A stretch of DNA of 48,294 nt from Parcubacteria group bacterium (GCA_039740835.1 JBCLGW010000002.1:1-48294), one strand, 5' to 3'. Positions 4,793-34,131 are shown, numbered from the stretch's first letter. Notes: generated by a model not told the origin, from the sequence alone. Program-made: numbers and translations.

Positions 4793-5386
4793 TTGAAACC
4801 TTTTTTGATATACTTTAAACACATGAAAAAACATTTGGATGGCGTACTTTTTTTAGTTAAAGATATTGCGATTATTGCAATCAGTGTTGTTGTCGCGGTG
4901 GAGCTTGTGCGTTTTGGAGTTATAAACAAAATTTTGGAGTCAATAGCGGGTTTTGAATTTATCGGAAGCTTTGTTGCGGGTATGTTTTTTACTTCGGTTT
5001 TTACAACAATACCATCTATAGCAACTCTCGGAGAGCTAGCTATTATGCGCCCAATTTTTCAGGTAGCATTTTTTGGTGCGCTCGGAGCTGTTGTCGGCGA
5101 CCTTGTAATTTTCCGTTTTATCAGAGACCGTTTTTCTCTACATCTTTTGGAATTACTCAAACACGAAAGTTTGGTAAAAAGATTTAAGATTTTGATTCGG
5201 TTGAAATATTTTCGTTGGATGACATTTCTGGTGGGAGGACTCATCATTGCTTCACCTTTTCCAGACGAGCTCGCTATCAGTCTGCTTGGTTTTGCAAAAA
5301 TGAAGACGCGTACTTTTTTGCTGGTGTCTTTTATTTTTAATTTTTTGGGAATACTTGTTATCAGCATTATCGCCAGAGCTCTTTAG
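4793..5386 (+). CDS. polytopic membrane protein, unknown function
   Basis: 197-aa ORF with several hydrophobic segments. The TTG at 4793 is doubtful and the ATG at 4823 (MKKHLDG) is the more likely start. Confidence 0.6.
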   Translation: MKPFLIYFKHMKKHLDGVLFLVKDIAIIAISVVVAVELVRFGVINKILESIAGFEFIGSFVAGMFFTSVFTTIPSIATLGELAIMRPIFQVAFFGALGAVVGDLVIFRFIRDRFSLHLLELLKHESLVKRFKILIRLKYFRWMTFLVGGLIIASPFPDELAISLLGFAKMKTRTFLLVSFIFNFLGILVISIIARAL

Positions 5387-8898: not shown

Positions 8899-9495
8899 AT
8901 GTCAGAGGAGAAAAAATCTAAAAAACTTGGCGAGTTTGAGTTTAAGTCAAAAACGCTTTCGTATGATGCCAACAAACCTCGCAATCGCGCGGACTATTTA
9001 AAATGGCTTACTGATGATGAGGTAAAAAAATATTTGGCACAGCGCAAACTAAACTACGGCATACTAATTGTAAATATGCTTTATGACAATAATGCTGGCA
9101 ATATCGTGCGCTCTGCCAACGCTTTTGGCGCAAATGAAATTATTTTATACGGACACAAATCTTTTGACCGTCGCGCTAGTGTCGGTGCAGAGTTTTACGA
9201 ACATTTTAGACATATAAAATTTGTAGAAGATTTGGAAGAAGTTTTTGCTCTATACGATATTGTTGTCGCAGTGGAAAACAACACAGACTCTGTAGCGCTC
9301 ACAGATTTTGCGTGGGATAAAAAGAAAAAAACTTTGATAATTTTTGGCCAAGAGAGTGGGGGAATTCCTAAAGAGATTTTGGAAAAGTGTAATCACGTCG
9401 TGCATATAAATCAGCTCGGTAGTGTGCGTTCATTAAACGTGGCTGTTGCCGCCGGTATTGTGATGAATGACTATTGCACAAAAACTCAAAATTAA
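8899..9495 (+). CDS. SpoU/TrmH-family RNA 2'-O-methyltransferase
   Basis: NAGNIVRSANAFGA, IIFGQESGGIPKEIL and GSVRSLNVAVAAGIVM, matching SPOUT motifs 1-3. Confidence 0.85.
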   Translation: MSEEKKSKKLGEFEFKSKTLSYDANKPRNRADYLKWLTDDEVKKYLAQRKLNYGILIVNMLYDNNAGNIVRSANAFGANEIILYGHKSFDRRASVGAEFYEHFRHIKFVEDLEEVFALYDIVVAVENNTDSVALTDFAWDKKKKTLIIFGQESGGIPKEILEKCNHVVHINQLGSVRSLNVAVAAGIVMNDYCTKTQN

Positions 9496-9747
9496 GTAAA
9501 ATATAAAAACTGTACTACTTCATGGTGTTTAAAACACATCATGATTGCACCTAAAACTTGTCTGGAGCTTGAAAACGGCAATTCTTTTTCTGCTGTTGAA
9601 ATCGTTCGCTCAGGTGATGATTTTCTTATAAAAACCAGTGCAACATATAAAAAAGCCAACACAAAAATAGAGGCAAAAGTAGATAGCACAACCCAAAAAG
9701 TTAATTCACAGCGACAGTTTTGAAAGATACTGGTACAATATTATTGT

Positions 9748-10989
9748 ATGGAAAAAAAGAAAATAGTAATACTGGGCGCCGGCTTTGCTGGCATCAACAC
9801 TTATGTTTCGCTTGTAAAGAAATTACAAAAAAATGAGGCGGATATTTTGTTTATAAATAAAACAAACTATTTTCTTTTTACCCCAATGCTTCATGAGCTT
9901 GCTACCGGAGGACTTGGTGATCATGAAGTAGTAGAGTCTGTGCGTCAAATAATCCACGGCACTTGTGCCGACATACTCGTCACACAAGTGGGTGAAATTG
10001 ATTTTGAAAAAAAGACAGTACAGGTGACGGGTGGACGAGTGTCATACGACTATCTCGTTATTGCACTCGGTGCAACAACCAACTTTTGTGATATTCCGGG
10101 CGTAGAACAAAATTCTTTTGTTTTGAAAGATTTGGCAGACGCCATCAGACTACGCAATAATTTTATATCCACTTTTGAAAAAGCTTCACATATAGCAGAT
10201 CAAGAGAAACGTAAAAAAATGCTTTCTTTTGTTGTGGTGGGTGCTGGTGCGACAGGTGTGGAGCTTGTCACTGAAATGGCTGATTTATTTTTCGAAACTT
10301 TTAGGAAATATTACAGAGGTCACATAAGCCCAGGTGATATTTCGATTATTCTTATAAACAAAGGACCAGATGTACTCACTGGTTTTGACAGATCAATGCA
10401 ACAGCGTGCTCTACGCGTGATAATAGAAAAAGGTATTACTGTAATGTTGAACAAAGACGTATCTAGTATTACAAAATCAGCTGTACTTTTTACAGACGGT
10501 TCATTTTTAGACGCTTCTTGTGTTATTTGGACAGCGGGAGTAAAACCACATTCAATATCATTTTTACAACCAGTTGAACTCGATAGATCTGGTAGAATAG
10601 TCGTCGATGAATATTTACGAGTGAGAAACGCTGAGCATGTTTTTGCTCTTGGAGATGCCGCTTCTTTTATGGGAGCAGATGGACGGCCTCTACCAATGTT
10701 GGCTCAGGTAGCAACACAGCAGGGTCCTATCGCGGGTCATAACATAGTAGCTCATATACGCAAAATGCCTTTCAAGAGATTTGAGTATCATTCTAAAGGC
10801 AGTCTCGTGTCTCTCGGTCAGTGGCAAGGCGTAGGGAAAATCGGAGGTATTTTGTGGACGGGACCAATAAGCTGGCTTATTTGGCGCATAGTTTATTTGT
10901 TCAATTTTGCGTCTGTACCAAAGCGGTTAAAGATTGCAATAAGTTGGATTATAAATATGTTTTATCCACGCGATATTACAAAACCGTAA
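9748..10989 (+). CDS. ndh: type II NADH dehydrogenase (NDH-2) / FAD-dependent pyridine nucleotide-disulfide oxidoreductase
   Basis: Two dinucleotide folds, IVILGAGFAGI and VVVGAGATGVE, plus FALGDAA and a C-terminal amphipathic or membrane segment. Confidence 0.8.
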   Translation: MEKKKIVILGAGFAGINTYVSLVKKLQKNEADILFINKTNYFLFTPMLHELATGGLGDHEVVESVRQIIHGTCADILVTQVGEIDFEKKTVQVTGGRVSYDYLVIALGATTNFCDIPGVEQNSFVLKDLADAIRLRNNFISTFEKASHIADQEKRKKMLSFVVVGAGATGVELVTEMADLFFETFRKYYRGHISPGDISIILINKGPDVLTGFDRSMQQRALRVIIEKGITVMLNKDVSSITKSAVLFTDGSFLDASCVIWTAGVKPHSISFLQPVELDRSGRIVVDEYLRVRNAEHVFALGDAASFMGADGRPLPMLAQVATQQGPIAGHNIVAHIRKMPFKRFEYHSKGSLVSLGQWQGVGKIGGILWTGPISWLIWRIVYLFNFASVPKRLKIAISWIINMFYPRDITKP

Positions 10990-23746: not shown

Positions 23747-24685
23747 ATGAACAGCCCTAAAACAAAAATAAGAGTTGGGGTGTTGCGTGGCGGACCGTCC
23801 GACGAATACGAAGTTTCTCTCAAAACTGGTAGCAACATTCTCAAAGCTATGCCCGAGCACTATCACGCTCGCGATATTTTTATAGACAAAAAAGGTGATT
23901 GGCATTTAGACGGAATTGTAAAAAAACCAAACGCTATCATCCGCCACTTTGATGTTATTTTCAACGCACTTCACGGAAACTATGGCGAAGATGGAAAAGT
24001 TCAAAAACTTTTAGATGACCATGGTGTGCCATACACTGGCTCTGGTGCACTTGCGTCTGCTATTGGAATGAACAAATATTTATCAAAAAATGTTTATCGA
24101 GAAAACGGTTTGAAAACTCCGCATTATGAGCTCATTCGTCGCACCGACAATTCTCAGTCAATGATGTTTGGCGTGTATGCAAACTTACGCAAACCTCTAG
24201 TAGTAAAGCCAGCGACTTCAGGGTCATCGCTAGGAGTAACAGTAAACATCACCGATTTTGAACCTTTTTTGAAAGCGACAGAAGAAGCTTTCAAGTTTTC
24301 TGATTCTGTGTTGGTTGAAGAATTTATTCTAGGTAGGGAAGCGACCTGTGCTGTGATAGACAGCGCAAAAACAAAAGGTCACGCCTATGCGCTTGCTCCG
24401 ATAGAAATAATCAAGCCCCAAGAAATCTGCCCCGGTAATTTTACTGAAAAAGAAACAAAAGAAATACAAGAAATGGCGATAAAAGCACACAAAGTACTCG
24501 GCCTGCGTCACTATTCTCGCTCTGATTTTATGGTCACCGACAAAGAAATTTATATTTTAGAAACAAATACTTTACCGGGTCTCACAGCAGAATCACTTTT
24601 GCCAAAGGCGCTTAAAGTCGCGAATTGTTCCACCTCTGATTTTATAGACCACGTCATTATTTTGGCGATGGGTAATAAGCTTTAG
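23747..24685 (+). CDS. ddl: D-alanine--D-alanine ligase
   Basis: ATP-grasp layout: VGVLRGGPSDEYEVSL, HGNYGEDGKVQ, the SGSSLGV loop, and SRSDFMV...ILETNTLPGLT. Confidence 0.9.
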   Translation: MNSPKTKIRVGVLRGGPSDEYEVSLKTGSNILKAMPEHYHARDIFIDKKGDWHLDGIVKKPNAIIRHFDVIFNALHGNYGEDGKVQKLLDDHGVPYTGSGALASAIGMNKYLSKNVYRENGLKTPHYELIRRTDNSQSMMFGVYANLRKPLVVKPATSGSSLGVTVNITDFEPFLKATEEAFKFSDSVLVEEFILGREATCAVIDSAKTKGHAYALAPIEIIKPQEICPGNFTEKETKEIQEMAIKAHKVLGLRHYSRSDFMVTDKEIYILETNTLPGLTAESLLPKALKVANCSTSDFIDHVIILAMGNKL

Positions 24686-24731
24686 GTTTCTATGCAGTTT
24701 CTTGATTTTATACAGCTTTTTGCCTATAATT
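24611..24731 (+). repeat. direct repeat copy 1 (authentic ddl 3' end plus downstream promoter)
   Basis: This 121 nt is nearly identical to 25778-25898. I count about 6 substitutions by eye. Confidence 0.9.
24702..24730 (+). promoter_or_regulatory. sigma70-like promoter (copy 1) upstream of the PG-binding gene
   Basis: TTGATT, a 17-nt spacer, then TATAAT. Confidence 0.6.
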
Positions 24732-24778
24732 AATCCATCTATAATAATTGAAAATTATTAATAAAACTGGAAAAGAAA

Positions 24779-25750
24779 ATGTTCAATATTAAAAAAATTA
24801 TGTTTAAAAATTCAAAATCTGCAAAAGTTTTTGCAGGAGTTGTGGGATTCGCAATGGTAGTAGCTGCTTTTGGTGCAGTTGTTGCTCCTGTAAAGGCGCA
24901 AGTAACTAGCCCAACTGACCTAGCTTCTCTTATTGCTCTTATCGCTTCTCTGGAAGCTCAAATCGCAGCATTACAAGGTGTATCTCCATCTGTAAGAATG
25001 ACAGGTTCAGTTCCAACAGCTCCTCTTACAATGGGTAGCTCAGGTGCTGAAGTTACAAAGCTACAAGATTTACTTATTTGGGAAGGGTTCGGACCAGCAG
25101 CTGGCGCGACTGGCTACTTTGGTCCACAGACAAAGGCAGCTCTTATGGCTTACCAAGCAGCAAACGGAATTTCTCCAGCTGTTGGTTACTACGGTTCAGT
25201 AACAGCGGCTAAGATTGCTTCTATGCTTGCGGGACTCGCTTTAGCAAACCCGGCTTGGAAAATGTATCAAAATGAGAAGTATATGTTTGAAGTAAACTAT
25301 CCGATCAATTTGCAATTCAGCACCGCTTTAAATGTTGGCATGTGGGGAGGCGGTATTCCAGCAACCGACGAATCACGGTGGACAATTTTTGATCCACTAC
25401 AGTTTGGGGTGTCTGAAATTGTGGGATTAAAGGAACCAATACGTTTTTCAGCCCAGCCAGAAAAGAATTTCATTGGTTATGAGAATTTGATAAATTTTAA
25501 GCGTCAGGGTTCGCGCGATAAAATTACTCCCTTCACGCTCGGAGATGCAAAAGGATTTATTAATCATAGCGACCTTTTTTCTACTAGAGAGGCGATGATG
25601 ATATGGAAGAGTGGCTATGTGTTCCTGTTCCCGCTTGAATTTGGATATGTACTTGTTCCTGATTTATGCGGGCAGGATTGCCAGACGGCATACAATAATC
25701 TAAGTTTAACAGCTCAGCATATTATCTCAACTTTTAAATTTATTCGATAA
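24779..25750 (+). CDS. secreted protein with a peptidoglycan-binding (PG_binding_1-type) domain
   Basis: Signal or anchor segment AKVFAGVVGFAMVVAAFGAVVAPVKA. PGB-like SSGAEVTKLQDLL...GYFGPQTKAALMAYQAANGI. The C-terminal 170 aa or so are unassigned. Confidence 0.8.
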   Translation: MFNIKKIMFKNSKSAKVFAGVVGFAMVVAAFGAVVAPVKAQVTSPTDLASLIALIASLEAQIAALQGVSPSVRMTGSVPTAPLTMGSSGAEVTKLQDLLIWEGFGPAAGATGYFGPQTKAALMAYQAANGISPAVGYYGSVTAAKIASMLAGLALANPAWKMYQNEKYMFEVNYPINLQFSTALNVGMWGGGIPATDESRWTIFDPLQFGVSEIVGLKEPIRFSAQPEKNFIGYENLINFKRQGSRDKITPFTLGDAKGFINHSDLFSTREAMMIWKSGYVFLFPLEFGYVLVPDLCGQDCQTAYNNLSLTAQHIISTFKFIR

Positions 25751-25777
25751 GGGTCAAAGGAATTTTCTTTAGGTATA

Positions 25778-25898
25778 CTTAAAGTCGCGAATTGTTCCAC
25801 CTCTGATTTTATAGACCACGTCATTATTTTGGCTATGAGCAACAAGCTTTAGGTTTCTGTACAGTTTCTTGATTTTATACAGCTTTTTGCCTATAATT
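25778..25898 (+). repeat. direct repeat copy 2 (orphan ddl 3'-end fragment plus promoter)
   Basis: Encodes a remnant of the last ~24 Ddl codons (LKVANCSTSDFIDHVIILAMSNKL-stop) with no upstream gene body, followed by the same promoter. Confidence 0.9.
25869..25897 (+). promoter_or_regulatory. sigma70-like promoter (copy 2) upstream of tRNA-Ala
   Basis: TTGATT, a 17-nt spacer, then TATAAT, about 40 nt upstream of the tRNA 5' end. Confidence 0.6.
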
Positions 25899-25938: not shown

Positions 25939-26014
25939 GGGCCCTTAGCTTAGTTGGTAGAGCGCCTCATTTGCAATGAGGAGGTCATCGGTTCGAATCC
26001 GATAGGGTCCACCA
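25939..26014 (+). tRNA. tRNA-Ala (anticodon UGC), CCA encoded
   Basis: Hand-folded cloverleaf. The acceptor is GGGCCCT/AGGGTCC with the G3:U70 alanine identity pair. The anticodon arm is CCTCA-TTTGCAA-TGAGG and the T arm is ATCGG-TTCGAAT-CCGAT. Ends in ACCA. Confidence 0.95.
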
Positions 26015-26097
26015 AACGAAACGTTTGCGAAATTAGAAATGCGGAAGAGGCAAAGTAAAAACTATTTTTGCGGGAGGAAAGGATTTTGCTTTGCCTC

Positions 26098-26195
26098 GGC
26101 TCTTTTTGTTGGTGGGATTTTGTATCCGTCGCGCAGGAGGGTGCGGGAGGAATGCGCGACGAATTCGTTTCTGGTTTTTCGCTGGATTTTTCGGC
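26098..26195 (-). repeat. inverted-repeat copy A of a ~100-nt element, possibly extending to about 26041
   Basis: The reverse complement (GCCGAAAAATCCAGCGAAAAACCAG...) aligns with 29323-29426 at about three quarters of positions by eye. It contains the hairpin GTCGCGCA(26128-26135)/TGCGCGAC(26153-26160). Confidence 0.75.
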
Positions 26196-26244
26196 CAAAT
26201 TATGGGAATATATCAATATAAGTTAAAAATAATAAAAAAGAAAA

Positions 26245-26420
26245 ACGCCTAAACCTCGGCACTTTTTGCCGTAGGCACGGCAACCAAATTCCAAACCACG
26301 ACAGTAAGCTCCTCATGGAGCGCTCATGGTTGGATCTGTAGCCGAAAGGTTATGGGATAGTCCGAAAGGGCTATCACTCGTGGGGAGCTTTCTGTTTCCC
26401 GTCGCGAGCGCCAAAACCCA
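26245..26420 (+). promoter_or_regulatory. candidate structured leader RNA (riboswitch-like) upstream of the Kelch/carboxypeptidase pair
   Basis: GC-rich 175 nt with stacked hairpins: CGGCA-CTTTT-TGCCG; GCTCC-TCAT-GGAGC; TAGCC-GAAA-GGTTA; ATAGTCC-GAAA-GGGCTAT; GGGA-GCTTTCTGT-TCCC. The two GAAA tetraloops point to the plus strand. No Shine-Dalgarno precedes the ATG at 26426. Confidence 0.4.
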
Positions 26421-26425
26421 ACCAC

Positions 26426-27508
26426 ATGACCAAATTTAGATTTTTTTGTTTTGTACTAACGATCGTCATACTCGGCTTGATAGTTTTTGCATATTTATAT
26501 TCCTCGCGTCAGGCGGTTTATTCTTCCGCAAAAACGCACCAAGTTGAGGTGGGTCAGGTAGCGGAATTTCAGCCGCGTCTTTTGTCGTGGTCGCAAGCGA
26601 CATCGTCCGCAGAATGGCAACTGAGAGACTCGGCTGTTGGTTTTGTGTTCCAAAACAAAATGTGGACGATGGGCGGATTAAATGGAAACAAGGAGATTGA
26701 TAGCAACCACACTGTCCACTATTGGGAAGCTCCGCATTTCAACGATATATGGACGAGTGAAAACGGCGCGCATTGGCAATTGGTAAAGGCACATGCGCAG
26801 TGGCCACCCAGACGATCCATGTCCGTTGTTTCGTTTCAAGACAAGTTATGGATGTTTGGTGGGTGGAGTTCGATTACCGGATACACGAGCGATATTTGGC
26901 AATCAGATGACGGTATCACTTGGACAAAAATTGTTTCGAAAGCTCTGTGGCCAGCCAGAGAAGGACAAACAACAGAAATATTTGATGGAAAGATTTGGAT
27001 GATGGGAGGAGTGAATTATGACAGACGAGAAGTGAAAAACGATGTGTGGTATTCGGACGACGGACTTCTTTGGCATCAGGCCACGACAACAATCCCGTGG
27101 AGTCCCAGATGGGATCACGCCACCGCCGTTTTCAACGGAAAGATATTTCTCGTTGGCGGTATGAATTTATCAGACCAAACATTCAAGGATATTTGGTCGT
27201 CGTCTGATGGATTCCATTGGGAATTATTGACTGCTTCGCCACCGTGGCAGGATCGGCAAGGTCATTCTCTTGTCATATTCCATAACAAGCTGTGGATTAT
27301 CGGAAGACTAAACGATAACGAAAGAGGAGGAGTAAACGATATTTGGTATTCCAATGATGGTACAACATGGCAAAAAACGGACGCCAATCCACCATGGGCA
27401 GGACGGGAGGATCATTCCGTTCTCATTTTTGACAATCGAATGTATGTGTTTGGCGGCATGGATGCAAATTGGCAATGGCGGAATGATGTCTGGTTTTCAT
27501 CAAACTAA
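26426..27508 (+). CDS. Kelch-type beta-propeller repeat protein, membrane-anchored
   Basis: Six repeats of about 47 aa of the form (K/N)DxWxSxDGxxW...PW..R..H..vvF..k.W..GG. The N-terminal TM is FFCFVLTIVILGLIVFAYLY. GC-rich. Confidence 0.85.
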   Translation: MTKFRFFCFVLTIVILGLIVFAYLYSSRQAVYSSAKTHQVEVGQVAEFQPRLLSWSQATSSAEWQLRDSAVGFVFQNKMWTMGGLNGNKEIDSNHTVHYWEAPHFNDIWTSENGAHWQLVKAHAQWPPRRSMSVVSFQDKLWMFGGWSSITGYTSDIWQSDDGITWTKIVSKALWPAREGQTTEIFDGKIWMMGGVNYDRREVKNDVWYSDDGLLWHQATTTIPWSPRWDHATAVFNGKIFLVGGMNLSDQTFKDIWSSSDGFHWELLTASPPWQDRQGHSLVIFHNKLWIIGRLNDNERGGVNDIWYSNDGTTWQKTDANPPWAGREDHSVLIFDNRMYVFGGMDANWQWRNDVWFSSN

Positions 27509-27511
27509 AAT

Positions 27512-29320
27512 ATGGATAAATTACCAAATAAAAAATTGCTTGCTCTCAGCGCTTTGTGTATCGGCGGCGTTCTACTTGTATTATTTATTTTATTGCTATC
27601 GAGCAAACTGCCGATTTTGAGTTTCGATAATCACAGTCAGCTTGCCCAAATTATCGCTATTGAAACCGACTTGCTGAAAAAATGGCAAGAAAATGGCTCA
27701 CTTAAAAACAATCTCACATATAATTCGGAGGGCGGCGATGTTCGGCTACTTCAGCGAATGCTCTCGCAGGATGACGCGGCGTATCCAGAGAAAAAAATTA
27801 CCGGATACTACGGAGATTTAACTAAACAAGCAGTGCGGAATTTTCAGAGAGAATACCGTCTTCCAGAGACAGGCACAGTTGATATGGCGACAAGAAAAAA
27901 ACTGAATGAGATATTTTTGTCGCATCTCTGTCCCGAACCCGTCGCCATATATCCGGAATTTATGATGAAAAAAGTTGGAGTAAATTATCGTGTACCGTCG
28001 GATTACGTGCCACCTCTCTTGGTGGATATTTCGGCAAAAGTAAATACGGTTGGTATCGCGTGCCTTCGTAGAGATGTCGTGCCGCGTGTAGTGCAGATGT
28101 TTACTGACGCAAGAAATGACGGTGTAAAATTTATGATTACCTCCAGCTATCGCAAACTGGAAATACAAAAATATCTATACGACTTTTGGATACAAGTCGA
28201 AGGAGATAAGGCGATCAATGAAATCGCGGAACCCGGCCTGTCTGAACATCAGCTGGGAACTACAATTGACATCACTGATTCGTCAATAAATTTTGCGGGT
28301 GTTGATGATAGATTTGCAAACAGCAAAGGCGGAAAGTGGTTACAAGCAAACGCATATAAATATGGCTTCACGATGAGTTTTCCCAAGGGCAAACAAAACA
28401 TAACAGGTTTTACCTATGAGCCATGGCACTGGCGTTTTTTGGGCGTTGAGACGGCCACGCGGTTGTATCAGCAGGATTTGACATACAACGAAACAAACCT
28501 TGCCTCCAATGACTTTCCTATCTTAAAAAACAACGTGGACGGATTGACACTTTCCGCAAATTCATTTATCTCGATTTCTGTTGCGAGCAACGGCAAGGAA
28601 AAAATCCTTATTGAAAAAAATAAAGAGCGACAGCTCCCGATAGCGAGTATTACCAAACTCATGGTCGCTCTAATTGCCTCGGAACAGCACAAGGCAGACG
28701 ATATTATTACCATTTCGGAAGATGCGCTCACAGGCAAAGGAGTATCCGGTGTCTATACAGCAGGCGAGAGTTTTCTATTTTCGGACGCACTGTACCCGTT
28801 ATTACTCGCTTCTCATAACGAGATTGCAAGCACGTTGGCGAAACAAAACGGCACAGCTAATTTTGTTAGTGCGATGAACAAAAAAGCAGTCACGCTCGGT
28901 ATCACAGATACAGTCTATGTAAATCCGACAGGGCTCGATCCAATGGTTGGTAGCGAGACGATAAATCGCTCAACTGCCTTTGATATTTATAAACTAGCAA
29001 GGTACATTTCAGAAAATCGTCCTGATATTTTCTCAATAACTTCCCAAACGCAATACTATCTCATGGATTCCGAAGGAAACTTTATAGCGACCATCGAAAA
29101 TACCAATAAACTTGTTGGACAGCGAGACAATCCGTTCCGCATAACTGGCAGCAAGACGGGAGAAACGCCGCGAGCAAAACAAAACCTTGTCATTGTAGCC
29201 GAGTCGCCATGCGGCGGCAAAATATTTAGCATTGTGCTTGGCTCGCAAAATAGTTTTAAAGATATGCAAAATCTGCTTTGGTATGTACATAATTCATTCG
29301 AGTGGAGCTGTTCTTCTTAG
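27512..29320 (+). CDS. fusion protein: TM anchor, PG-binding domain, VanY/M15B-type zinc D,D-carboxypeptidase, and S11-type serine D-Ala-D-Ala carboxypeptidase
   Basis: PGB: GGDVRLLQRML...GYYGDLTKQAVRNFQREYRL. M15B: SSYR, SEHQLGTTIDI, EPWHWRF. S11: SITK (SxxK), SHN (SxN), KTG. Confidence 0.85.
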   Translation: MDKLPNKKLLALSALCIGGVLLVLFILLLSSKLPILSFDNHSQLAQIIAIETDLLKKWQENGSLKNNLTYNSEGGDVRLLQRMLSQDDAAYPEKKITGYYGDLTKQAVRNFQREYRLPETGTVDMATRKKLNEIFLSHLCPEPVAIYPEFMMKKVGVNYRVPSDYVPPLLVDISAKVNTVGIACLRRDVVPRVVQMFTDARNDGVKFMITSSYRKLEIQKYLYDFWIQVEGDKAINEIAEPGLSEHQLGTTIDITDSSINFAGVDDRFANSKGGKWLQANAYKYGFTMSFPKGKQNITGFTYEPWHWRFLGVETATRLYQQDLTYNETNLASNDFPILKNNVDGLTLSANSFISISVASNGKEKILIEKNKERQLPIASITKLMVALIASEQHKADDIITISEDALTGKGVSGVYTAGESFLFSDALYPLLLASHNEIASTLAKQNGTANFVSAMNKKAVTLGITDTVYVNPTGLDPMVGSETINRSTAFDIYKLARYISENRPDIFSITSQTQYYLMDSEGNFIATIENTNKLVGQRDNPFRITGSKTGETPRAKQNLVIVAESPCGGKIFSIVLGSQNSFKDMQNLLWYVHNSFEWSCSS

Positions 29321-29322
29321 TC

Positions 29323-29426
29323 GCCGAAAAATCCAGTGCAAAATCAAAAAAGTATCCGCCGTGGATTCCTCCCTAAACCCCTCCTCCGCGCGGGAACCCA
29401 ATCCGAATTTCCGCCAAAAAAATTAG
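29323..29426 (+). repeat. inverted-repeat copy B of the ~100-nt element, interrupted at 29426 by the cassette
   Basis: Aligns with the reverse complement of 26098-26195. The equivalent hairpin CCGCCGTGGA(29356-29365)/TCCGCGCGG(29385-29393) keeps pairing through different bases. Homology to copy A resumes at about 33760. Confidence 0.75.
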
Positions 29427-29432
29427 TCTCGG

Positions 29433-29471
29433 TTTTGTGTTTTGTCCACGTGAAGAAGTTGTGGTAGTGTA
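29433..29471 (+). repeat. left terminal inverted repeat
   Basis: TTTTGTGTTTTGTCCACGTGAAGAAGTTGTGGTAGTGTA. Confidence 0.9.
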
Positions 29472-29533
29472 AAGTAGTTAAAAATCTATTATACTCAAAG
29501 TAGGGTTGAGTTATAAATAATTATAAATACTAT

Positions 29534-29956
29534 ATGACTTTAATTCAAAAACTAGCATGGGTTTACGCAGTCCTTTTTGTGCTTGTAACAGTTACAGGAT
29601 ATGTGCCGGCCTTTAATGACGAGAATGGTAATTTATTCGGCTTATTTTCACTTCAATTTTATGACGACCTATTGCATCTTGCGTCCGGTATTTTGGCCGG
29701 AATAGCTGCATGGCTTTCATATCGCGCTTCTGTTTCCTACTTCAAAATTTTTGGTGTTCTGTATGGAATGGATGGTGTTGTAGGGTTACTAACAGGAAGT
29801 GGATACTTGGATCTTGGAATTTTTCTAAACGGCTCATTGGATATAGACTTGTGGACGAGAATTGCAGCTAACACACCTCATATATTGATTGGAGGATTTG
29901 CCACTTATATTGGTTTTGTTTTGAGTAAAAAATTTAATAATCAAACGGGGTTTTAA
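29534..29956 (+). CDS. small 4-TM membrane protein (DUF4383-like, tentative)
   Basis: 140-aa hydrophobic ORF. The family assignment is from memory of that family's look (N-terminal helix, conserved LH..G) and was not verified. Confidence 0.65.
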   Translation: MTLIQKLAWVYAVLFVLVTVTGYVPAFNDENGNLFGLFSLQFYDDLLHLASGILAGIAAWLSYRASVSYFKIFGVLYGMDGVVGLLTGSGYLDLGIFLNGSLDIDLWTRIAANTPHILIGGFATYIGFVLSKKFNNQTGF

Positions 29957-29968
29957 ATTCAAAAAAAT

Positions 29969-31132
29969 TTGAAAAAAATTCTCAACAAAATTCGGCATTC
30001 ACGTATTGCCAAGGTCATCGTCTTGGTAATATTAGTTAGTGTTTTAATTAAATCTTACGAAACCCTGACAAGTCCAAAAGTTGCCTATCCGAAACTTGAT
30101 GTATCTCAAATAAGTAAGTTTGAAGTGGAAAAAGTCAAAATTTCTGAACTACCGAAAGATGCAAAGGATAAAATACATTCTGAATTCCCAATTTATAGTT
30201 CAAGAAAAATAGAACAAACTTATTTAACACTACCAGAATGGTATCAGGTCTATAGTTATAACGAGTTCGGAGATTTCCTGCATGGTGGAGGAAGGCAGTC
30301 TGATTTTCCGTTTTTGAGATCCATAAAGAATTTTTGGAGTTATTATCGTGTTGCCATAGGAGAAAGTAAAGATGAAAAATTTAATTGGCAATACAATTTT
30401 GTTACTTGGGTTATTGGGGCAAACTTAACAATAGAATACTTTATTAAGTCGGTCTACGAAAATACGATAGGAACAATCACACAATTTATTGCAGGAAGCA
30501 GTACTGAGGCAGATAGATTTATCGCTAACTCTTGGAACAACTACGCAAAAAAGATGTATCAGACTACATGGTATCACTATCCTTATTTCGGTGACTTAAA
30601 AGGCATTTGGAAAGATACTTCTATTTTCAATAAACAATTTGTTAGAAATTTTGAAAGAAAAATTGCTTTTTCCATTTCATATTTAATAAAAGGCACTTAC
30701 GCAAAAATTTGGCTCCTAGTAGCAGTTCAAAAAGAGGATCAGACTCTCAGTATCGTGTATGCCGAAAACAGACTCGTGCTAGAAGATAATGGAGTTAAAA
30801 TTTTGAAAGAGTTATCAGATAATAAATATCTTATAGAAACCGAGAGATACGCAGGATTTAAAGAAGCCCTCATACGATTAATAGCTAAAGATGTAAGGTT
30901 TATAGAAATCCAAGGACACAATGTAATTGCACTTTCATATCTCTCAAATAAAAAATCGGAGCCGTTTCTAGACTCTAAAGATGTTGACATTTTAGATAAG
31001 AGAAAATTATTCTTTGAACCGAATAACTATACGCACAGAGTAACTTTGCGAGTTAAAACCCAAACGTTAAAAGAAGTAATTGACACCATAAATTTAAACG
31101 GAAATAAATTCGAAATGATTTATGATTTCTAA
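29969..31132 (+). CDS. hypothetical membrane-anchored protein (387 aa)
   Basis: TTG start. The N-terminal TM is IAKVIVLVILVSVLI. The protein is rich in aromatic residues (W/Y/F). No recognised motif. Confidence 0.6.
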   Translation: MKKILNKIRHSRIAKVIVLVILVSVLIKSYETLTSPKVAYPKLDVSQISKFEVEKVKISELPKDAKDKIHSEFPIYSSRKIEQTYLTLPEWYQVYSYNEFGDFLHGGGRQSDFPFLRSIKNFWSYYRVAIGESKDEKFNWQYNFVTWVIGANLTIEYFIKSVYENTIGTITQFIAGSSTEADRFIANSWNNYAKKMYQTTWYHYPYFGDLKGIWKDTSIFNKQFVRNFERKIAFSISYLIKGTYAKIWLLVAVQKEDQTLSIVYAENRLVLEDNGVKILKELSDNKYLIETERYAGFKEALIRLIAKDVRFIEIQGHNVIALSYLSNKKSEPFLDSKDVDILDKRKLFFEPNNYTHRVTLRVKTQTLKEVIDTINLNGNKFEMIYDF

Positions 31133-32099
31133 ACTTCATGGAAAGCGAAATAAGTTTTTTTATTTTATCCTCGGTTTCGTTGTTTTACTTTTTTCTTGGT
31201 TATGGTTTGTGGATCTATTTCTTGAGAATGATGACGTATATGTGGTAGCTCCACAAAATACTCAATGGGTAGAGCTTGGTAAAAATAAAATCGCCTACCA
31301 GCATTTTCAATCCAATACAAACAAAAATGTAGTTTTAATTGGTGGCACAACCGCATGGAGTGGCGTTTGGAAAAATACAGTAGAAGATTTAAGGAACGAA
31401 TATAATATATACACAATTGACCTGCCACCATTTGGATTTTCTGTTGTTGACAAGGAATATAAATATAATCTATCAAATCAAGCGGATCTAATTAATGAGT
31501 TCTTGGAGAAATTAGACATTAAAGACGTTGTTTTCGTGGCTCATTCATATGGAGCTGGCCCTTCAATGGAAGCAGTTTTAAGAAATCCTGACAATTATAG
31601 AAAGTTTGTTATTATTGATGGAGCAATTCATGTTGACAGAGAAGATAAGAAGACTATCGGGTTCATAAAAAAATTATTTAGCATCCCTACGTTTCGATAT
31701 TTAATTTCAAGTGTTGCGTTACATCTGCCCGGATTTATGGAGGCATCCTTAAAATATCTAGTTTATGACAACAGCAAGGTAGATGATTTTTGGGTAGATA
31801 TTTATAATCAGCCGTTAAGTGTAGAAAATCAAAGCCAGAAAATAGCCAAATGGTTTTATGATTTTGTTTTTGAAAATGGAGTAGGTCTTTCCAGTGAGGG
31901 AGTGAACTATAAAGATCTAAATGTTCCTGTTGCAATAATCTGGGGCAAGGAAGATACATTTACCCCACTCGAGCAGGGTTTATACTTGCAAAAAATTATT
32001 CCCAAAAACGAATTATTTATATTGGATAAAGTGGGGCACATTCCCATGATTGATGACCACGAGCATTATATTAAGGTGTTGAAAATTTTTTTGGAGTAA
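31122..32099 (+). CDS. membrane-anchored alpha/beta-fold hydrolase
   Basis: Overlaps the previous gene by 11 nt. The nucleophile elbow is VAHSYGAG. WGKEDTFTP and the C-terminal GHIPMIDDHE fit the Asp/His positions. Confidence 0.8.
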   Translation: MISKLHGKRNKFFYFILGFVVLLFSWLWFVDLFLENDDVYVVAPQNTQWVELGKNKIAYQHFQSNTNKNVVLIGGTTAWSGVWKNTVEDLRNEYNIYTIDLPPFGFSVVDKEYKYNLSNQADLINEFLEKLDIKDVVFVAHSYGAGPSMEAVLRNPDNYRKFVIIDGAIHVDREDKKTIGFIKKLFSIPTFRYLISSVALHLPGFMEASLKYLVYDNSKVDDFWVDIYNQPLSVENQSQKIAKWFYDFVFENGVGLSSEGVNYKDLNVPVAIIWGKEDTFTPLEQGLYLQKIIPKNELFILDKVGHIPMIDDHEHYIKVLKIFLE

Positions 32100-32105
32100 A
32101 TATAA

Positions 32106-33707
32106 ATGGAAACTTTAAAAAAAATAATTAAAAAGCCATTAGTAATTTCTATAATCGCGGTTGTGATTACGATTTTTGTGCTTGGAAAGAAAATCCAATA
32201 CTACGCCGCCGATCCTGTTGGAGAAAAAGATTGTCTGCCAATTTTCCCAAGTTTTGCTGGCGACCCAATAAAACAAAATAGAATTGAAATGACGAGGTAT
32301 GAGCTTTCTTGGACACAGAAGGGAGGATATATCAACGATGCAAGCTGCCTAAACAAAACTGCCGTGCACGGCATTGTTTCAGTAAAGAACGCAGACGAAA
32401 TTAAAAGCGCTTTGATATTTGCAAAAGATGAAGATTTGAAAGTTTCCATTGCAGGAGTCAAGCATAGTATGGGCGGACACGCATTTTATAAGAACGCTTT
32501 GATTCTGGATATGACAAAGTTTAATCAAATGACTCTTAGTGAAGAAAGTAAAATATTAAACGTTCAGAGCGGTGCAACATGGCACGATATCCAAAACTTC
32601 CTTCATCCAAAATTTGCTGTCAAGGCTATGCAATCAACAGACATTTTTACTGTTGGTGGCTCTATTTCAGTCAATGCTCACGGGATGGATCACCATGCAG
32701 GGGCAGTTGCAAAAACCATTCGCTCCATGCGGGTGATGCTTTTTGATGGTTCGGTTAAAAATGTCAGTCGCACGGAGAATACGGAGCTATTTAACCTTGT
32801 AATCGGCGGCTACGGCCTTTTTGGGATAGTGTTAGATGTTGATTTAGAGATAATGGATAATGTTGTGTATCAATCTGAGCGAAAGATAATTGACTACAAA
32901 GAATTTCCGGATGTATTTAGTGGGGAAATTGCAAATGATGATAGTATCGGACTATTCTACAGTCATCTTTCCACGGCGCCGCAGTCGTTTTTGAAAGAAA
33001 TGATTTTGTACACATATAAAAAAGTTGATGCGCCTGATGCAGAAATTCCTCCGCTTGGCGAGGTGAGTAGTATTAAGTTGCGAAGATTGATTTTTAATCT
33101 TGCCAAGAAAGGATCAATTCCCATGCGATTAAAGTGGTTTGCAGAAAAGTACATTGAACCTATGATTGAAAATTGCCCCGTTTCAAGAAATCAGGCCCTC
33201 ACCGAGGGCGAGGCTTGTTTGGTATCACGAAACGAACCTATGCATGATTCTGTGCCGTATCTTCGCAATAATTTGAAAAATGACACCGACATTTTACATG
33301 AATACTTTATCCCTCGCGATCAGTTTGTTTCGTATGTTGATGGAATGAGAAAAATCATACTCGAAAATGATGTAAATCTTCTCAATGCTTCCGTGCGCAT
33401 AGTGCACAAGGAAAATAACTTTTTGAATTATTCACCCAAAGATGCATTCTCTATTGTTTTATATTTAAATCAGACTACCGACGAGGAGGGTAATAATAAA
33501 ATGCAGAAAGTTACGCAAGAGCTTATTGATTTGACTATTGCGCACGACGGACGATTCTTTTTGCCATATCAACTACACTATACAATAGAACAACTGGAAA
33601 AATCATATCCTGAATTTAGGTCATTCTTGGCAAAGAAAAAGCAGTATGATCCGCAGGAACGATTAACAAGCACATTTTACAAAAAATATTCTGCCGAAAT
33701 TCAATAA
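32106..33707 (+). CDS. membrane-anchored FAD-linked oxidase (PCMH / FAD_binding_4 type)
   Basis: N-terminal TM. An FAD-binding PCMH-like core (VSIAGVKHSMGGH...VQSGATWHDIQ...VGGSISVNAHG) and a C-terminal substrate domain ending HDGRFFLPYQLHYT. Confidence 0.75.
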   Translation: METLKKIIKKPLVISIIAVVITIFVLGKKIQYYAADPVGEKDCLPIFPSFAGDPIKQNRIEMTRYELSWTQKGGYINDASCLNKTAVHGIVSVKNADEIKSALIFAKDEDLKVSIAGVKHSMGGHAFYKNALILDMTKFNQMTLSEESKILNVQSGATWHDIQNFLHPKFAVKAMQSTDIFTVGGSISVNAHGMDHHAGAVAKTIRSMRVMLFDGSVKNVSRTENTELFNLVIGGYGLFGIVLDVDLEIMDNVVYQSERKIIDYKEFPDVFSGEIANDDSIGLFYSHLSTAPQSFLKEMILYTYKKVDAPDAEIPPLGEVSSIKLRRLIFNLAKKGSIPMRLKWFAEKYIEPMIENCPVSRNQALTEGEACLVSRNEPMHDSVPYLRNNLKNDTDILHEYFIPRDQFVSYVDGMRKIILENDVNLLNASVRIVHKENNFLNYSPKDAFSIVLYLNQTTDEEGNNKMQKVTQELIDLTIAHDGRFFLPYQLHYTIEQLEKSYPEFRSFLAKKKQYDPQERLTSTFYKKYSAEIQ

Positions 33708-33709
33708 TC

Positions 33710-33748
33710 TACACTACCACAACTTCTTCACGTGGACAAAACACAAAA
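33710..33748 (-). repeat. right terminal inverted repeat
   Basis: Exact reverse complement of 29433-29471. Confidence 0.9.
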
Positions 33749-33906
33749 ACAAAAATTAGCCGAGATTTCGCAAAACCGAGTCCATATTTGTATTGTGTTC
33801 CCCCCCACTTTCCATTTTGGAAAGCTCTTTACTTCGCATAGAGGCGCGTAGCGTGTGGGGAAACGCTAGCTCTTCATTTTTTCTTGGAAATAAGTTCGAG
33901 CAAATG

Positions 33907-34131
33907 CTACAATGACACCACCACAATGTGTGAATAACCACTCAAATTTTGGGTGGTTATTTCATTATTAATCTGAAAAATACAGCCTAATTTTGTGGTT
34001 CGAAAACCATTTTTCAGATCATAAACAATTCCTTCTGGGAAAACACGCTTTTGGAACCGAACACGAAGTTGCGGAGAACAATCAAACCATTGTCTCGCAA
34101 TATTCTTTATAAAGTGTTCAGCATAAGTCAA
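33907..34131 (-). pseudogene. remnant of a recombinase-like gene (C-terminal fragment only)
   Basis: There is an in-frame TAG just upstream and no ATG. The fragment ...RVRFQKRVFPEGIVYDLKNGFRTTKLGCIFQ resembles, from memory, the C-terminal region of serine-recombinase-family proteins. The catalytic N-terminal part is absent. Confidence 0.4.

What the first reader, a model, noticed from the sequence alone, without database searches (positions are those of the whole stretch)
26041..29426. GC-rich two-gene cell-wall island between ~100-bp inverted repeats, directly downstream of tRNA-Ala
Seen: 29323-29426 aligns with the reverse complement of 26098-26195. Both begin GCCGAAAAATCCAG at the inner edges, and 40 of the first 51 positions are identical by my count. 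A hairpin inside the repeat is kept by different base pairs in the two copies: GTCGCGCA/TGCGCGAC versus CCGC(C)GTGGA/TCCGCGCGG. Both enclose a conserved pyrimidine loop, TTCCTCCC...CCCTCC, which reads GGAGGG...GGGAGGAA on the other strand. The enclosed genes are the Kelch propeller and the PGB-VanY-S11 fusion. The 60-nt lines I counted there are about 48-58% GC, against about 27-40% elsewhere. Established knowledge: tRNA genes are common integration sites for genomic islands, and compositional shifts mark foreign DNA. Inference: this is a horizontally acquired island whose ends are long terminal inverted repeats, or a pair of structured RNA modules. The covariation suggests selection on an RNA or DNA hairpin rather than simple decay.
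Basis: partly seen in the sequence, partly recalled or inferred. Interest (0 to 1): 0.62.

Follow-up and report, generated by a model that had tools for sequence, protein, structure and literature searches.

The report
Decayed serine-recombinase gene cassette at tRNA-Ala
The two ~100-base inverted repeats are real: they are the worn-down end-arms of a mobile gene cassette of a very common, apparently undescribed family in ultra-small (CPR/Patescibacteria) bacteria that a large serine recombinase parks behind tRNA genes, and this copy has lost its recombinase.

Summary
The inverted repeat, its two hairpins and tRNA-Ala are as described. The GC rise is real but modest: 44% against 39.6% for the genome, 99th percentile.

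The repeat is not private to this site.
- A second contig holds 330-nt, 99%-identical inverted arms of the same family. They bracket an ABC-transporter operon between tRNA-Tyr and alr.
- One congener has different cargo in 373-nt arms at that same site. Two congeners have the empty site.
- A covariance model of the arm finds it in 62 of 301 genomes of the order, always as convergent pairs around 1-7 kb of variable cargo.
- A large serine recombinase (LSR), inside its own inverted arms and abutting a tRNA 3' end, usually lies next to the cargo cassette.

The window holds an LSR-less, decayed copy.
- Its left arm is truncated.
- Its right arm is split by a nested 4.3-kb insertion and really ends at 33917, followed by CCACCA, the tRNA-Ala 3' end.
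- The cargo is a LOOT RNA, a Kelch gene and a PGB-VanY-S11 gene. The same cassette, arms included, occurs behind another tRNA in an unrelated metagenome at 82% DNA identity.

Its borders and GC figures need correcting. What the hairpin modules do is unresolved.

The parts
25939..26014 (+). tRNA-Ala(TGC). Its 3' end CCACCA (26009-26014) is the att core.
   Evidence: ARAGORN and Rfam.
26015..26040 (.). A 26-nt junction stretch, AACGAAACGTTTGCGAAATTAGAAAT. It is either the native flank or the remnant of the recombinase-side arm (attL).
   Evidence: By my own count on the output, 21 of the first 25 positions match the sequence after tRNA-Ala in congener G003, which has no island. It also resembles the starts of LSR-side arms such as AAAAACGAAATCGGATTTTAGA.
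26041..26195 (+). Left arm, truncated. It keeps hairpin A (26047-26097), hairpin B (26127-26161), a T-rich tail and the inner terminus GCTGGATTTTTCGGC. The outer ~170 nt present in full arms are missing.
   Evidence: The R1 model scores it 91 bits, but it is a training sequence. The length comparison is with the 330-nt arms of contig C10.
26246..26375 (+). LOOT RNA (Rfam RF03000). It lies between the left arm and the Kelch gene.
   Evidence: 51.5 bits against a gathering score of 46.4. In congener G001 a LOOT copy also follows an arm directly, at 70.6 bits.
26426..27508 (+). Cargo gene 1: a 360-aa Kelch beta-propeller protein with an N-terminal hydrophobic segment.
   Evidence: Pfam Kelch families. 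It stays paired with gene 2 in L191, L192 and L193.
27512..29320 (+). Cargo gene 2: a 602-aa fusion of PG_binding_1, VanY (D-Ala-D-Ala carboxypeptidase) and Peptidase_S11.
   Evidence: Pfam. None of 300 other genomes of the order has a full-length homologue. Metagenomes hold homologues at 70-84% identity.
29323..29432 (-). Right arm, inner part. It holds hairpin B (29356-29394) and the first strand of hairpin A (about 29424-29434).
   Evidence: The R1 model scores it 88 bits, but it is a training sequence.
29433..33748 (.). A nested 4.3-kb insertion that splits hairpin A of the right arm. It has its own 49-nt inverted ends (39 nt perfect) and carries DUF4383, a 387-aa unknown, an alpha/beta hydrolase and an FAD oxidase. 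Its GC is 35.3%.
33749..33917 (-). Right arm, outer part. It holds the second strand of hairpin A (33766-33783), a multi-hairpin domain (about 33788-33868), the conserved terminus and an outward extended -10 promoter (TTGGAA, 18 nt, TG, TACAAT at 33884-33913).
   Evidence: BLAST to the C10 arm (92.6% over 27 nt), alignment of outer termini and the promoter scan.
33918..33923 (+). CCACCA, a direct repeat of the tRNA-Ala 3' end. This is the distal att core (attR-like).
   Evidence: Read directly from the sequence. The same core-after-arm rule holds, by my reading, in 19 of the 20 LSR loci that show a distal junction.

Best explanation
**What it is.** The repeat pair is what remains of the two arms of a cargo cassette. 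The cassette belongs to a family of tRNA-targeting integrative elements of Patescibacteria that appear to be moved by a large serine recombinase (LSR).

**Layout of intact relatives (shown).** The order is: tRNA 3' end (core); arm A; LSR gene; inverted arm A'; inverted core; arm B; cargo; inverted arm B'; core; flank.
- The three junctions are the combinations expected for attL, an internal inverted attP and attR.
- Arm B is 100-430 nt long. It is built of several hairpins whose stems covary and whose purine-rich loops are nearly invariant.
- The outer tip of arm B carries a half-site and an outward promoter.

**State of the window copy (shown).**
- The cassette carries a LOOT RNA, a Kelch gene and a PGB-VanY-S11 gene. 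It sits behind tRNA-Ala and ends at 33917 followed by CCACCA.
- The LSR module and the outer half of the left arm are gone.
- The right arm was later split by a second 4.3-kb insertion.
- The arms have drifted to 77% identity, against about 99% in fresh copies.

**History (inferred).** The cassette arrived by LSR-catalysed recombination between a tRNA 3' end and the joined arm ends. It was then immobilised when the recombinase module was deleted.

**Hairpin modules (inferred, weakest step).** They act as folded single strands that are needed on both DNA strands. The most likely roles are inward-facing boundary or terminator elements, or protein-recognition signals. They are not the crossover site itself, which lies 100-400 nt away at the arm tip.
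For: **The repeat belongs to a family that brackets cargo**
- The genome holds four copies as two convergent pairs.
- On C10, arms that are 98.8% identical over 329 nt bracket an ABC-transporter operon between tRNA-Tyr and alr.
- Congener G003 has 373-nt arms around different cargo (Mrr, a DnaJ-like protein, TPR proteins) at the same site.
- Congeners G006 and G007 have the empty site: the tRNA-Tyr 3' end ACGCACC is followed at once by the alr ATG in G007 and by AG then the ATG in G006.
- The R1 model hits 62 of 301 genomes and 52 of 190 genera. I counted about 25 same-contig pairs, all convergent and none divergent.
- All 14 loci that I fetched have inverted repeats of 90-436 nt at 96-100% identity around variable cargo.

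**Link to a large serine recombinase**
- An LSR (Resolvase + Recombinase + Zn_ribbon_recom) lies next to the cargo cassette in at least 8 of those 14 loci.
- Starting instead from the LSR, I examined 80 loci:
  - 64 have the LSR inside its own inverted repeats.
  - 41 have a tRNA 3' end abutting the arm.
  - 21 of the 36 with enough upstream sequence have a second inverted-repeat pair abutting.
- The junction rule holds locus by locus.

**The window fits the family**
- The outer terminus of the right arm reads TGGTGG + TGTCATTGTAGCA...CGAAC on the G-rich strand, as in the family. CCACCA recurs at 33918.
- The same cassette, with arms on both sides, occurs at 82% DNA identity behind a different tRNA in an unrelated run.
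- Congener G003 carries a complete LSR cassette at tRNA-Gln.

**Covariation**
- Hairpin B: 98.8% of cells paired and 8 of 9 pairs with changes on both sides, in 45 distinct copies.
- Hairpin A: 8 of its 12 predicted stem pairs are compensatory.
Against: - No LSR gene is found in this assembly. The assembly is only 82% complete, so the role of an LSR here rests on relatives.
- There is no clean empty site for the tRNA-Ala locus.
  - Relatives carry other genes after tRNA-Ala.
  - The gene after the island is unique to this genome within the genus.
  - The 25 nt after the tRNA are shared with G003. The left border could therefore be 26041 and not the tRNA end, and the distal CCACCA could have travelled with the arm instead of being a target duplication made here.
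- No excised circle, inversion isomer or recombination reaction has been observed. The only public run holds thin contigs.
- No function of the hairpin loops has been tested.
Confidence: 0.8

Rival explanations
1. The two repeats are independent structured RNA genes or cis-regulatory RNA modules. Examples would be small RNAs with SD-like or anti-SD-like loops, or protein-sponge hairpins. On this reading they only happen to flank the operon.
For: - The stems covary strongly and the 17-19-nt loop is nearly invariant.
- Hairpin B is followed by a T-rich tract on the G-rich strand, like an intrinsic terminator.
- The C10 arm folds well below its shuffles, z = -6 on one strand and -9 on the other.
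Against: - The copies always come as convergent pairs bracketing variable cargo (about 25 to 0 by my count).
- The two copies of a pair are about 99% identical, while pairs in different genomes differ widely.
- They sit beside tRNA-end cores and LSR genes.
- There is no Rfam match.
- G-T and C-A cells are equally rare, 6 against 3 of 403, so no strand is favoured.
- An RNA role in addition to the DNA role is not excluded.
Confidence: 0.07
2. The arms are the inverted repeats of an invertible segment. This would be a flip-flop switch that turns the cargo operon on or off, with inversion by homologous or site-specific recombination. It would not be the border of a mobile insertion.
For: - Cargo orientation relative to the tRNA differs between G000 C10 and G003 at the same site.
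- A few LSR loci have the recombinase gene flipped relative to the tRNA.
- Near-perfect inverted repeats of 100-400 nt are good substrates for inversion.
Against: - The whole unit is present or absent between congeners, with exact empty sites.
- The cargo differs completely at one site.
- The same cassette sits behind different tRNAs in different organisms.
- In the window the arms are only 77% identical and one is interrupted, so inversion here is unlikely.
- Inversion may still occur in fresh copies as a side reaction.
Confidence: 0.08
3. It is a non-autonomous DDE-type transposon (MITE-like composite) with long terminal inverted repeats and a target-site duplication.
For: - Terminal inverted repeats enclose cargo with no recombinase inside.
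- Short direct repeats lie outside the arms: ACGCACC on C10 and CCACCA in the window.
Against: - The direct repeat is always the 3' end of the adjacent tRNA, not a random target.
- No DDE transposase is associated with any of the loci read. The recurrent neighbour is a serine recombinase.
Confidence: 0.03

Closest known systems
Integrative elements and prophages moved by large serine recombinases (phiC31, Bxb1, A118; SCCmec CcrAB; Tn4451 TnpX). These names are from my own knowledge.
   Same: - In relatives the enzyme has the Resolvase + Recombinase + Zn_ribbon_recom architecture.
- Insertion is site-specific.
- The junctions behave as attL and attR built from one host and one element half-site.
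   Different: - The arms are 100-430 nt long, hairpin-rich and exact inverted repeats, not sites of about 50 bp.
- Every intact element keeps a second, inverted copy of its joined ends between a recombinase module and a cargo module.
- Many different tRNAs are used as targets.
- The window copy has no recombinase.
Tycheposons of Prochlorococcus (bioRxiv 10.1101/2020.12.28.424599)
   Same: - Cargo-carrying elements sit at tRNA genes of a streamlined genome.
- Tandem integrations and degenerate remnants build islands.
- A minority use a large serine recombinase.
   Different: - Tycheposons are flanked by partial-tRNA direct repeats, not by long structured inverted arms.
- 910 of 937 use tyrosine recombinases.
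- Many carry replication genes.
Integron gene cassettes and attC sites (from my own knowledge)
   Same: - Exchangeable cargo units are bounded by folded sites whose structure is kept while the stem sequence varies.
- Arrays of cassettes occur (L147 has three).
   Different: - Integrons use the tyrosine recombinase IntI.
- Each cassette has one attC, in direct orientation.
- There is no tRNA target.
- Here the conserved hairpins are not at the crossover point.
pdif modules of Acinetobacter plasmids (from my own knowledge)
   Same: Cargo-only modules are bounded by recombination sites in inverted orientation and are moved by an enzyme encoded elsewhere.
   Different: Those sites are 28-bp XerC/XerD sites on plasmids. 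They are not tRNA-end cores with long arms.
LOOT RNA motif, Rfam RF03000
   Same: The stretch 26246-26375 matches the full model above the gathering score.
   Different: It is a passenger inside the cassette, not part of the repeat. As I recall, it was described only from lake and ocean metagenomes without a host.

Membership tests
Patescibacterial LSR/tRNA cassette element (defined here from relatives and not found in the literature searched) | Cargo is bracketed by convergent inverted arms of the structured B type (hairpins A and B with conserved loops). | tested here: met
   Both arms align with the family copies in alignments A2 and A3 and match the R1 model at 88-91 bits, although both were training sequences. 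Independent copies score up to 94 bits.
Patescibacterial LSR/tRNA cassette element (defined here from relatives and not found in the literature searched) | The element abuts a tRNA 3' end, and the last 4-8 nt of that tRNA recur after the distal arm. | tested here: met
   CCACCA is at 26009-26014 and again at 33918-33923, after the conserved arm terminus. Caveat: 25 nt shared with G003 lie between the tRNA and the left arm.
Patescibacterial LSR/tRNA cassette element (defined here from relatives and not found in the literature searched) | A large serine recombinase gene lies inside its own inverted arms, between the tRNA and the cargo cassette. | tested here: not met
   There is no LSR homologue in the window or anywhere in the assembly. 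This copy is therefore an LSR-less derivative and not an intact member.
Patescibacterial LSR/tRNA cassette element (defined here from relatives and not found in the literature searched) | An internal inverted copy of the joined ends (A'-core'-B) is present. | tested here: not met
   The outer part of the left arm and any core' (TGGTGG) are missing at 26015-26046.
Classical tRNA-linked genomic island | tRNA adjacency, flanking direct repeats, atypical composition, patchy distribution and an integrase gene. | tested here: inconclusive
   tRNA adjacency, a 6-bp direct repeat, 99th-percentile GC and absence of the cargo from the four congeners sampled are met. The integrase is absent.
MITE or composite DDE transposon | A DDE transposase, in cis or trans, is associated with the terminal inverted repeats, and the target duplication has a fixed length at varied targets. 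| tested here: not met
   No transposase lies among the cargo or neighbours in any locus read. The 'duplication' is always the tRNA end.
Integron cassette | An IntI tyrosine recombinase with attI, and one attC per cassette in direct orientation. | tested here: not met
   The arms are inverted pairs, and the neighbouring recombinase in relatives is a serine enzyme.
LOOT RNA (RF03000) | A score at or above Rfam's gathering threshold over the full model. | tested here: met
   51.5 bits against 46.4, covering model positions 1-121.
Intrinsic terminator (hairpin B) | A GC-rich stem, a short loop and a following U-tract. | tested here: inconclusive
   The stem and the T-rich tail are present on the G-rich strand. 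The loop is 17-19 nt, so the consensus scan does not call it.

The most novel reading that the evidence does not exclude
Patescibacteria may run a serine-recombinase counterpart of the integron.
- A phylum-wide pool of self-contained cassettes would be docked in chains behind tRNA genes. Each cassette would be closed by long inverted arms that end in a tRNA-end mimic.
- The conserved hairpin modules have an invariant, G-run-rich loop (AGGAGGGGTYTGGGGAGGAAT) on covarying stems. They would be folded single-strand signals, present once on each strand because the arms are inverted.
- These signals would let DNA taken up as a single strand be recognised, primed or recombined.
- The LSR-less cassettes of this genome would then be mobilisable in trans, not dead.
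Probability: 0.3. Interest if true: 0.85.

Novelty: new variant of a known kind. Interest (0 to 1): 0.62.

Why it matters
CPR/Patescibacteria have tiny genomes, and how they gain genes is poorly known.

This locus, read together with its relatives, points to a very common vehicle for gene gain that I could not find in the literature searched.
- It places variable operons exactly behind tRNA genes. The cargo includes cell-wall enzymes, transporters and restriction systems.
- The recombinase family gave at least 575 confirmed loci in one-genome-per-species data.
- The arm family occurs in about a fifth of the genomes sampled from one order.

The window adds four points:
- Cassettes persist and decay after losing the recombinase.
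- Cassettes move as a unit with their arms between different tRNAs.
- The arms hold deeply conserved hairpin modules of unknown function.
- The orphan LOOT RNA belongs to these bacteria and can ride in such cassettes.

The recombinases and their long sites could also be of interest as genome-engineering parts.

Tried and rejected
1. **Rfam for the arms.** There was no family match at E up to 5 in the window region or up to 1 in L010.
2. **A 7-bp target-site duplication on C10.** I first read GGTGCGT/ACGCACC as the duplication of a DDE-type transposon. I dropped this when the same motif proved to be the tRNA-Tyr 3' end, and when every related locus repeated its own tRNA end.
3. **Read-level test for inversion or excision.**
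   - Only one glacier-metagenome sample holds the sequence, as Logan contigs at depth 2-6.
   - No informative joints fell at the arms.
4. **A clean empty site at tRNA-Ala.**
   - Congeners carry unrelated genes after tRNA-Ala.
   - The right flank is unique to this genome within the genus.
   - The empty-site evidence therefore comes from the tRNA-Tyr/alr locus.
5. **An intact parent element with this cargo.**
   - None of 300 other genomes of the order has the full fusion gene.
   - Metagenome relatives carry the Kelch and VanY-S11 pair. One also carries both arms, but no LSR lies on its 9-kb contig.
6. **Phyletic link between arm model and LSR.** It is only modest: 49 of 62 arm-positive genomes have an LSR against 142 of 239 arm-negative ones. 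This is my hand count, with chi-square about 8 and p about 0.004. The R1 model covers one arm subtype and the LSR family is broad. Adjacency is the stronger evidence.
7. **Literature.** Six full-text searches found no description of this element.


Full report
**1. The observation**

tRNA-Ala(TGC) lies at 25939-26014. The repeat finder reports arms 26145-26195 and 29323-29373, 51 nt and 80% complementary. A gapped alignment extends the match to about 100 nt, with 77% mean column identity. A sensitive BLAST of the left arm against the whole 0.5-Mb assembly finds the right arm at E = 7.7e-9.

- On the left, stem 26127-26135 pairs with 26153-26161.
- On the right, stem 29356-29365 pairs with 29385-29394.
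- The stem sequences differ, but the loop is shared. It reads GGAGGG..GGGAGGAA on one strand.

The enclosed ORFs are a Kelch propeller and a PG_binding_1 + VanY + Peptidase_S11 fusion.

The composition claim is overstated:
- The region is 44.2% GC, against 39.6 +/- 2.0% for same-size genome windows (z = 2.3, 99th percentile).
- Its tetranucleotide distance from the genome is at the 97th percentile.
- GC3 is 0.43-0.46, against 0.27-0.37 in neighbouring genes (profile).

**2. The repeat is a family, and it brackets cargo**

The genome holds two more copies on contig C10. There the arms are about 330 nt long and 98.8% identical over 329 nt. They flank an NMT1-type binding protein, a permease and an ATPase, between tRNA-Tyr and alanine racemase.

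The same site in other members of the genus:

| Genome | State of the tRNA-Tyr / alr site |
|---|---|
| G003 | 373-nt arms at 97.9% identity, around unrelated cargo (Mrr endonuclease, a DnaJ-like protein, two TPR proteins) |
| G007 | Empty: the alr ATG overlaps the tRNA's CCA (..ACGCACCATG) |
| G006 | Empty: ..ACGCACCAGATG |
| G004 | A different insert, without arms |

The unit is therefore an insertion with exchangeable content.

**3. Structure of the arms**

Eight copies from three genomes show hairpin B with 8 of 9 pairs changed on both sides. From these I built a covariance model, R1. R1 then collected 59 copies, 45 of them distinct, from many genera. In that set:
- 98.8% of cells are paired, and 8 of 9 pairs are compensatory.
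- There are at least six stem classes.
- The loop is almost invariant: AGGAGGGGTYTGGGGAGGAAT.
- G-T cells (6) and C-A cells (3) are equally rare, so neither strand is favoured.

Hairpin A behaves the same way: 8 of its 12 predicted stem pairs are compensatory. Full arms also hold a long hairpin and a three-hairpin junction. Rfam has no family for the arms.

**4. Distribution and the recombinase**

R1 hits 62 of 301 sampled genomes of the order, in 52 of 190 genera. By my count about 25 same-contig pairs are all convergent and none is divergent. Many hits lie at contig ends.

I fetched fourteen such loci. All have inverted repeats of 90-436 nt at 96-100% identity around 1-6 cargo genes, often beside a tRNA. 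The cargo includes a glycosyltransferase, Ddl, HNH and DHH proteins, GDSL and NUDIX enzymes, an FtsX/ABC pair, a DpnII restriction-modification system and a P-type ATPase.

In at least 8 of the 14 loci, a large serine recombinase lies directly beside the cargo cassette.

I then started from the recombinase. The species-representative genome collection gave at least 575 confirmed loci. Most of the best 80 records are labelled as Patescibacteria or CPR lineages; some carry other or generic labels. Of those 80:
- 64 have the LSR gene inside its own inverted repeats (median identity 99%).
- 41 have a tRNA 3' end abutting the arm downstream of the LSR. The tRNAs are Ser, Gln, Asn, Gly and Trp.
- 21 of the 36 with enough upstream sequence have a second inverted-repeat pair abutting. 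Its arms are 70-433 nt and span 1.0-7.4 kb.

Junction sequences follow one rule: tRNA..core | A..LSR..A' | core' | B..cargo..B' | core | flank. The core is the last 4-8 nt of that tRNA.

The three junctions are exactly the combinations tRNA/A, B'/A (inverted) and B'/flank. These correspond to attL, an internal inverted attP and attR, for an attB made of tRNA end plus flank. That reading is inference. No reaction was observed.

**5. What the window holds**

*Right arm.*
- BLAST shows that the outer part of a full arm lies at 33749-33917, beyond a 4.3-kb block.
- The block is bounded by its own 49-nt inverted ends, 29433-29481 and 33700-33748.
- The block interrupts hairpin A of the right arm.
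- Aligned with other arm tips, the window's tip reads TGGTGG + TGTCATTGTAGCATTTGCTCGAAC on the G-rich strand. On the + strand the arm therefore ends ..CTACAATGACA followed by CCACCA (33918-33923), the 3' end of tRNA-Ala.
- The tip carries an outward extended -10 promoter.

*Left arm.*
- It keeps only hairpins A and B (26041-195). The outer ~170 nt and any recombinase module are absent.
- No LSR is found in the 82%-complete assembly.
- The 25 nt between the tRNA and the arm are shared with G003, which has no island there. The left border is therefore either 26015 or 26041.

*Cargo.*
- Rfam places a LOOT RNA at 26246-26375, between the left arm and the Kelch gene.
- A Logan contig (L192) from an unrelated run carries the same cassette at 82% DNA identity. 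It has arm, a truncated LOOT, Kelch, VanY-S11 and arm, behind a different tRNA end (CCCGCACCA).
- None of 300 other genomes of the order has the full fusion gene.

*Genus.* G003 contig C28 has a complete LSR cassette at tRNA-Gln. Its enzyme is 94% identical to one from another family of the order.

**6. Reading**

The finding is a decayed, recombinase-less cargo cassette of this family. Fresh cassettes have arms about 99% identical. Here the arms are 77% identical, one is truncated and the other is split.

The role of the hairpin modules is open.
- They lie at the cargo-proximal end of the arms, 100-400 nt from the core, so they are not the minimal crossover site.
- On the G-rich strand, hairpin B is followed by a T-rich tract and points inward from both sides. 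This fits a boundary or terminator role.
- The invariant loop and the lack of strand bias fit recognition of a folded strand that must exist on both strands.

**7. Known or new**

Six full-text searches found no description. The nearest published analogue is the tycheposon, which is flanked by partial-tRNA direct repeats and mostly uses tyrosine recombinases.

I looked up this scan's own earlier notes on other genomes only after I had reached this reading. They describe the same element and arm. They agree with my reading but are not independent evidence.

Noticed in passing
window 26246-26375: The LOOT RNA (RF03000) lies inside the cassette. It is over the gathering score in 102 of 301 genomes of this order (83 of 190 genera match at E up to 0.001), with 1-4 matches per genome, and in none of the 14 control genomes. 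As I recall, it was known only from lake and ocean metagenomes without a host. In G001 (L022 676-795) it again follows an arm directly. In L192 it is cut down to its first hairpin. In two of twelve other loci read (L179, L188) a serine-recombinase-like gene start lies close by.
   Followed up: partly
window 29433-33748: The nested 4.3-kb block has 49-nt inverted ends and 35.3% GC (2nd percentile). It sits inside hairpin A of the right arm. Its termini (TGTGTTTTGTCCAC..) resemble cargo-arm tips (TGTGTATTGGACAA..), so it may be a short-armed cassette of the same system.
   Followed up: partly
window 24611-25898: The peptidoglycan-binding gene between ddl and tRNA-Ala is absent in G004, G006 and G007, where tRNA-Ala follows ddl within about 100 nt. 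A Logan contig joins 25777 back to 24611, as expected for the 121-bp direct repeats noted by another reader.
   Followed up: partly
L034 (G007) and L035 (G006), tRNA-Tyr/alr junction; L010 4088-4130: In the empty sites the alr start codon overlaps or nearly abuts the tRNA-Tyr CCA end, so alr has no room for its own promoter. After insertion, the arm tip in front of alr carries -10-like sequences by my own reading: TGTATAAT in G003 and TAATAT in G000. These may replace read-through from the tRNA.
   Followed up: partly
L024 (G001:C6) 4822-5010: In G001, tRNA-Ala is followed by a scar of about 175 nt. The scar ends with a cargo-arm tip plus CACC, and then CGATTGAATTT, a motif that also starts the LSR-side arm in G099. 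This looks like the remains of an earlier element at the same tRNA.
   Followed up: partly
L192 1-216: Three copies of one tRNA 3' end in alternating orientation lie within 216 nt, ahead of the Kelch and VanY cassette. They look like collapsed mini-cassettes, similar to the 43-nt palindrome between tRNA-Tyr and the arm in G003.
   Followed up: partly
L194 (G003:C28) 214-1497 against L098 (G241): The LSR proteins of two different families of the order are 94% identical. This suggests recent transfer of the recombinase module.
   Followed up: no
hairpin B loop, e.g. window 26136-26152 and L010 4349-4367: The invariant loop GGAGGGGTCTGGGGAGG holds enough G-runs for a two-tier G-quadruplex closed by the stem. 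I did not test this.
   Followed up: no
L036 (G004) 8925-10780: G004 carries a different 1.85-kb insert, without inverted arms, at the same tRNA-Tyr/alr junction. I identified it as an ABC-exporter-type gene only from Walker-type motifs that I recognised in the raw sequence; no family search was run. The site is a general insertion hot spot.
   Followed up: no
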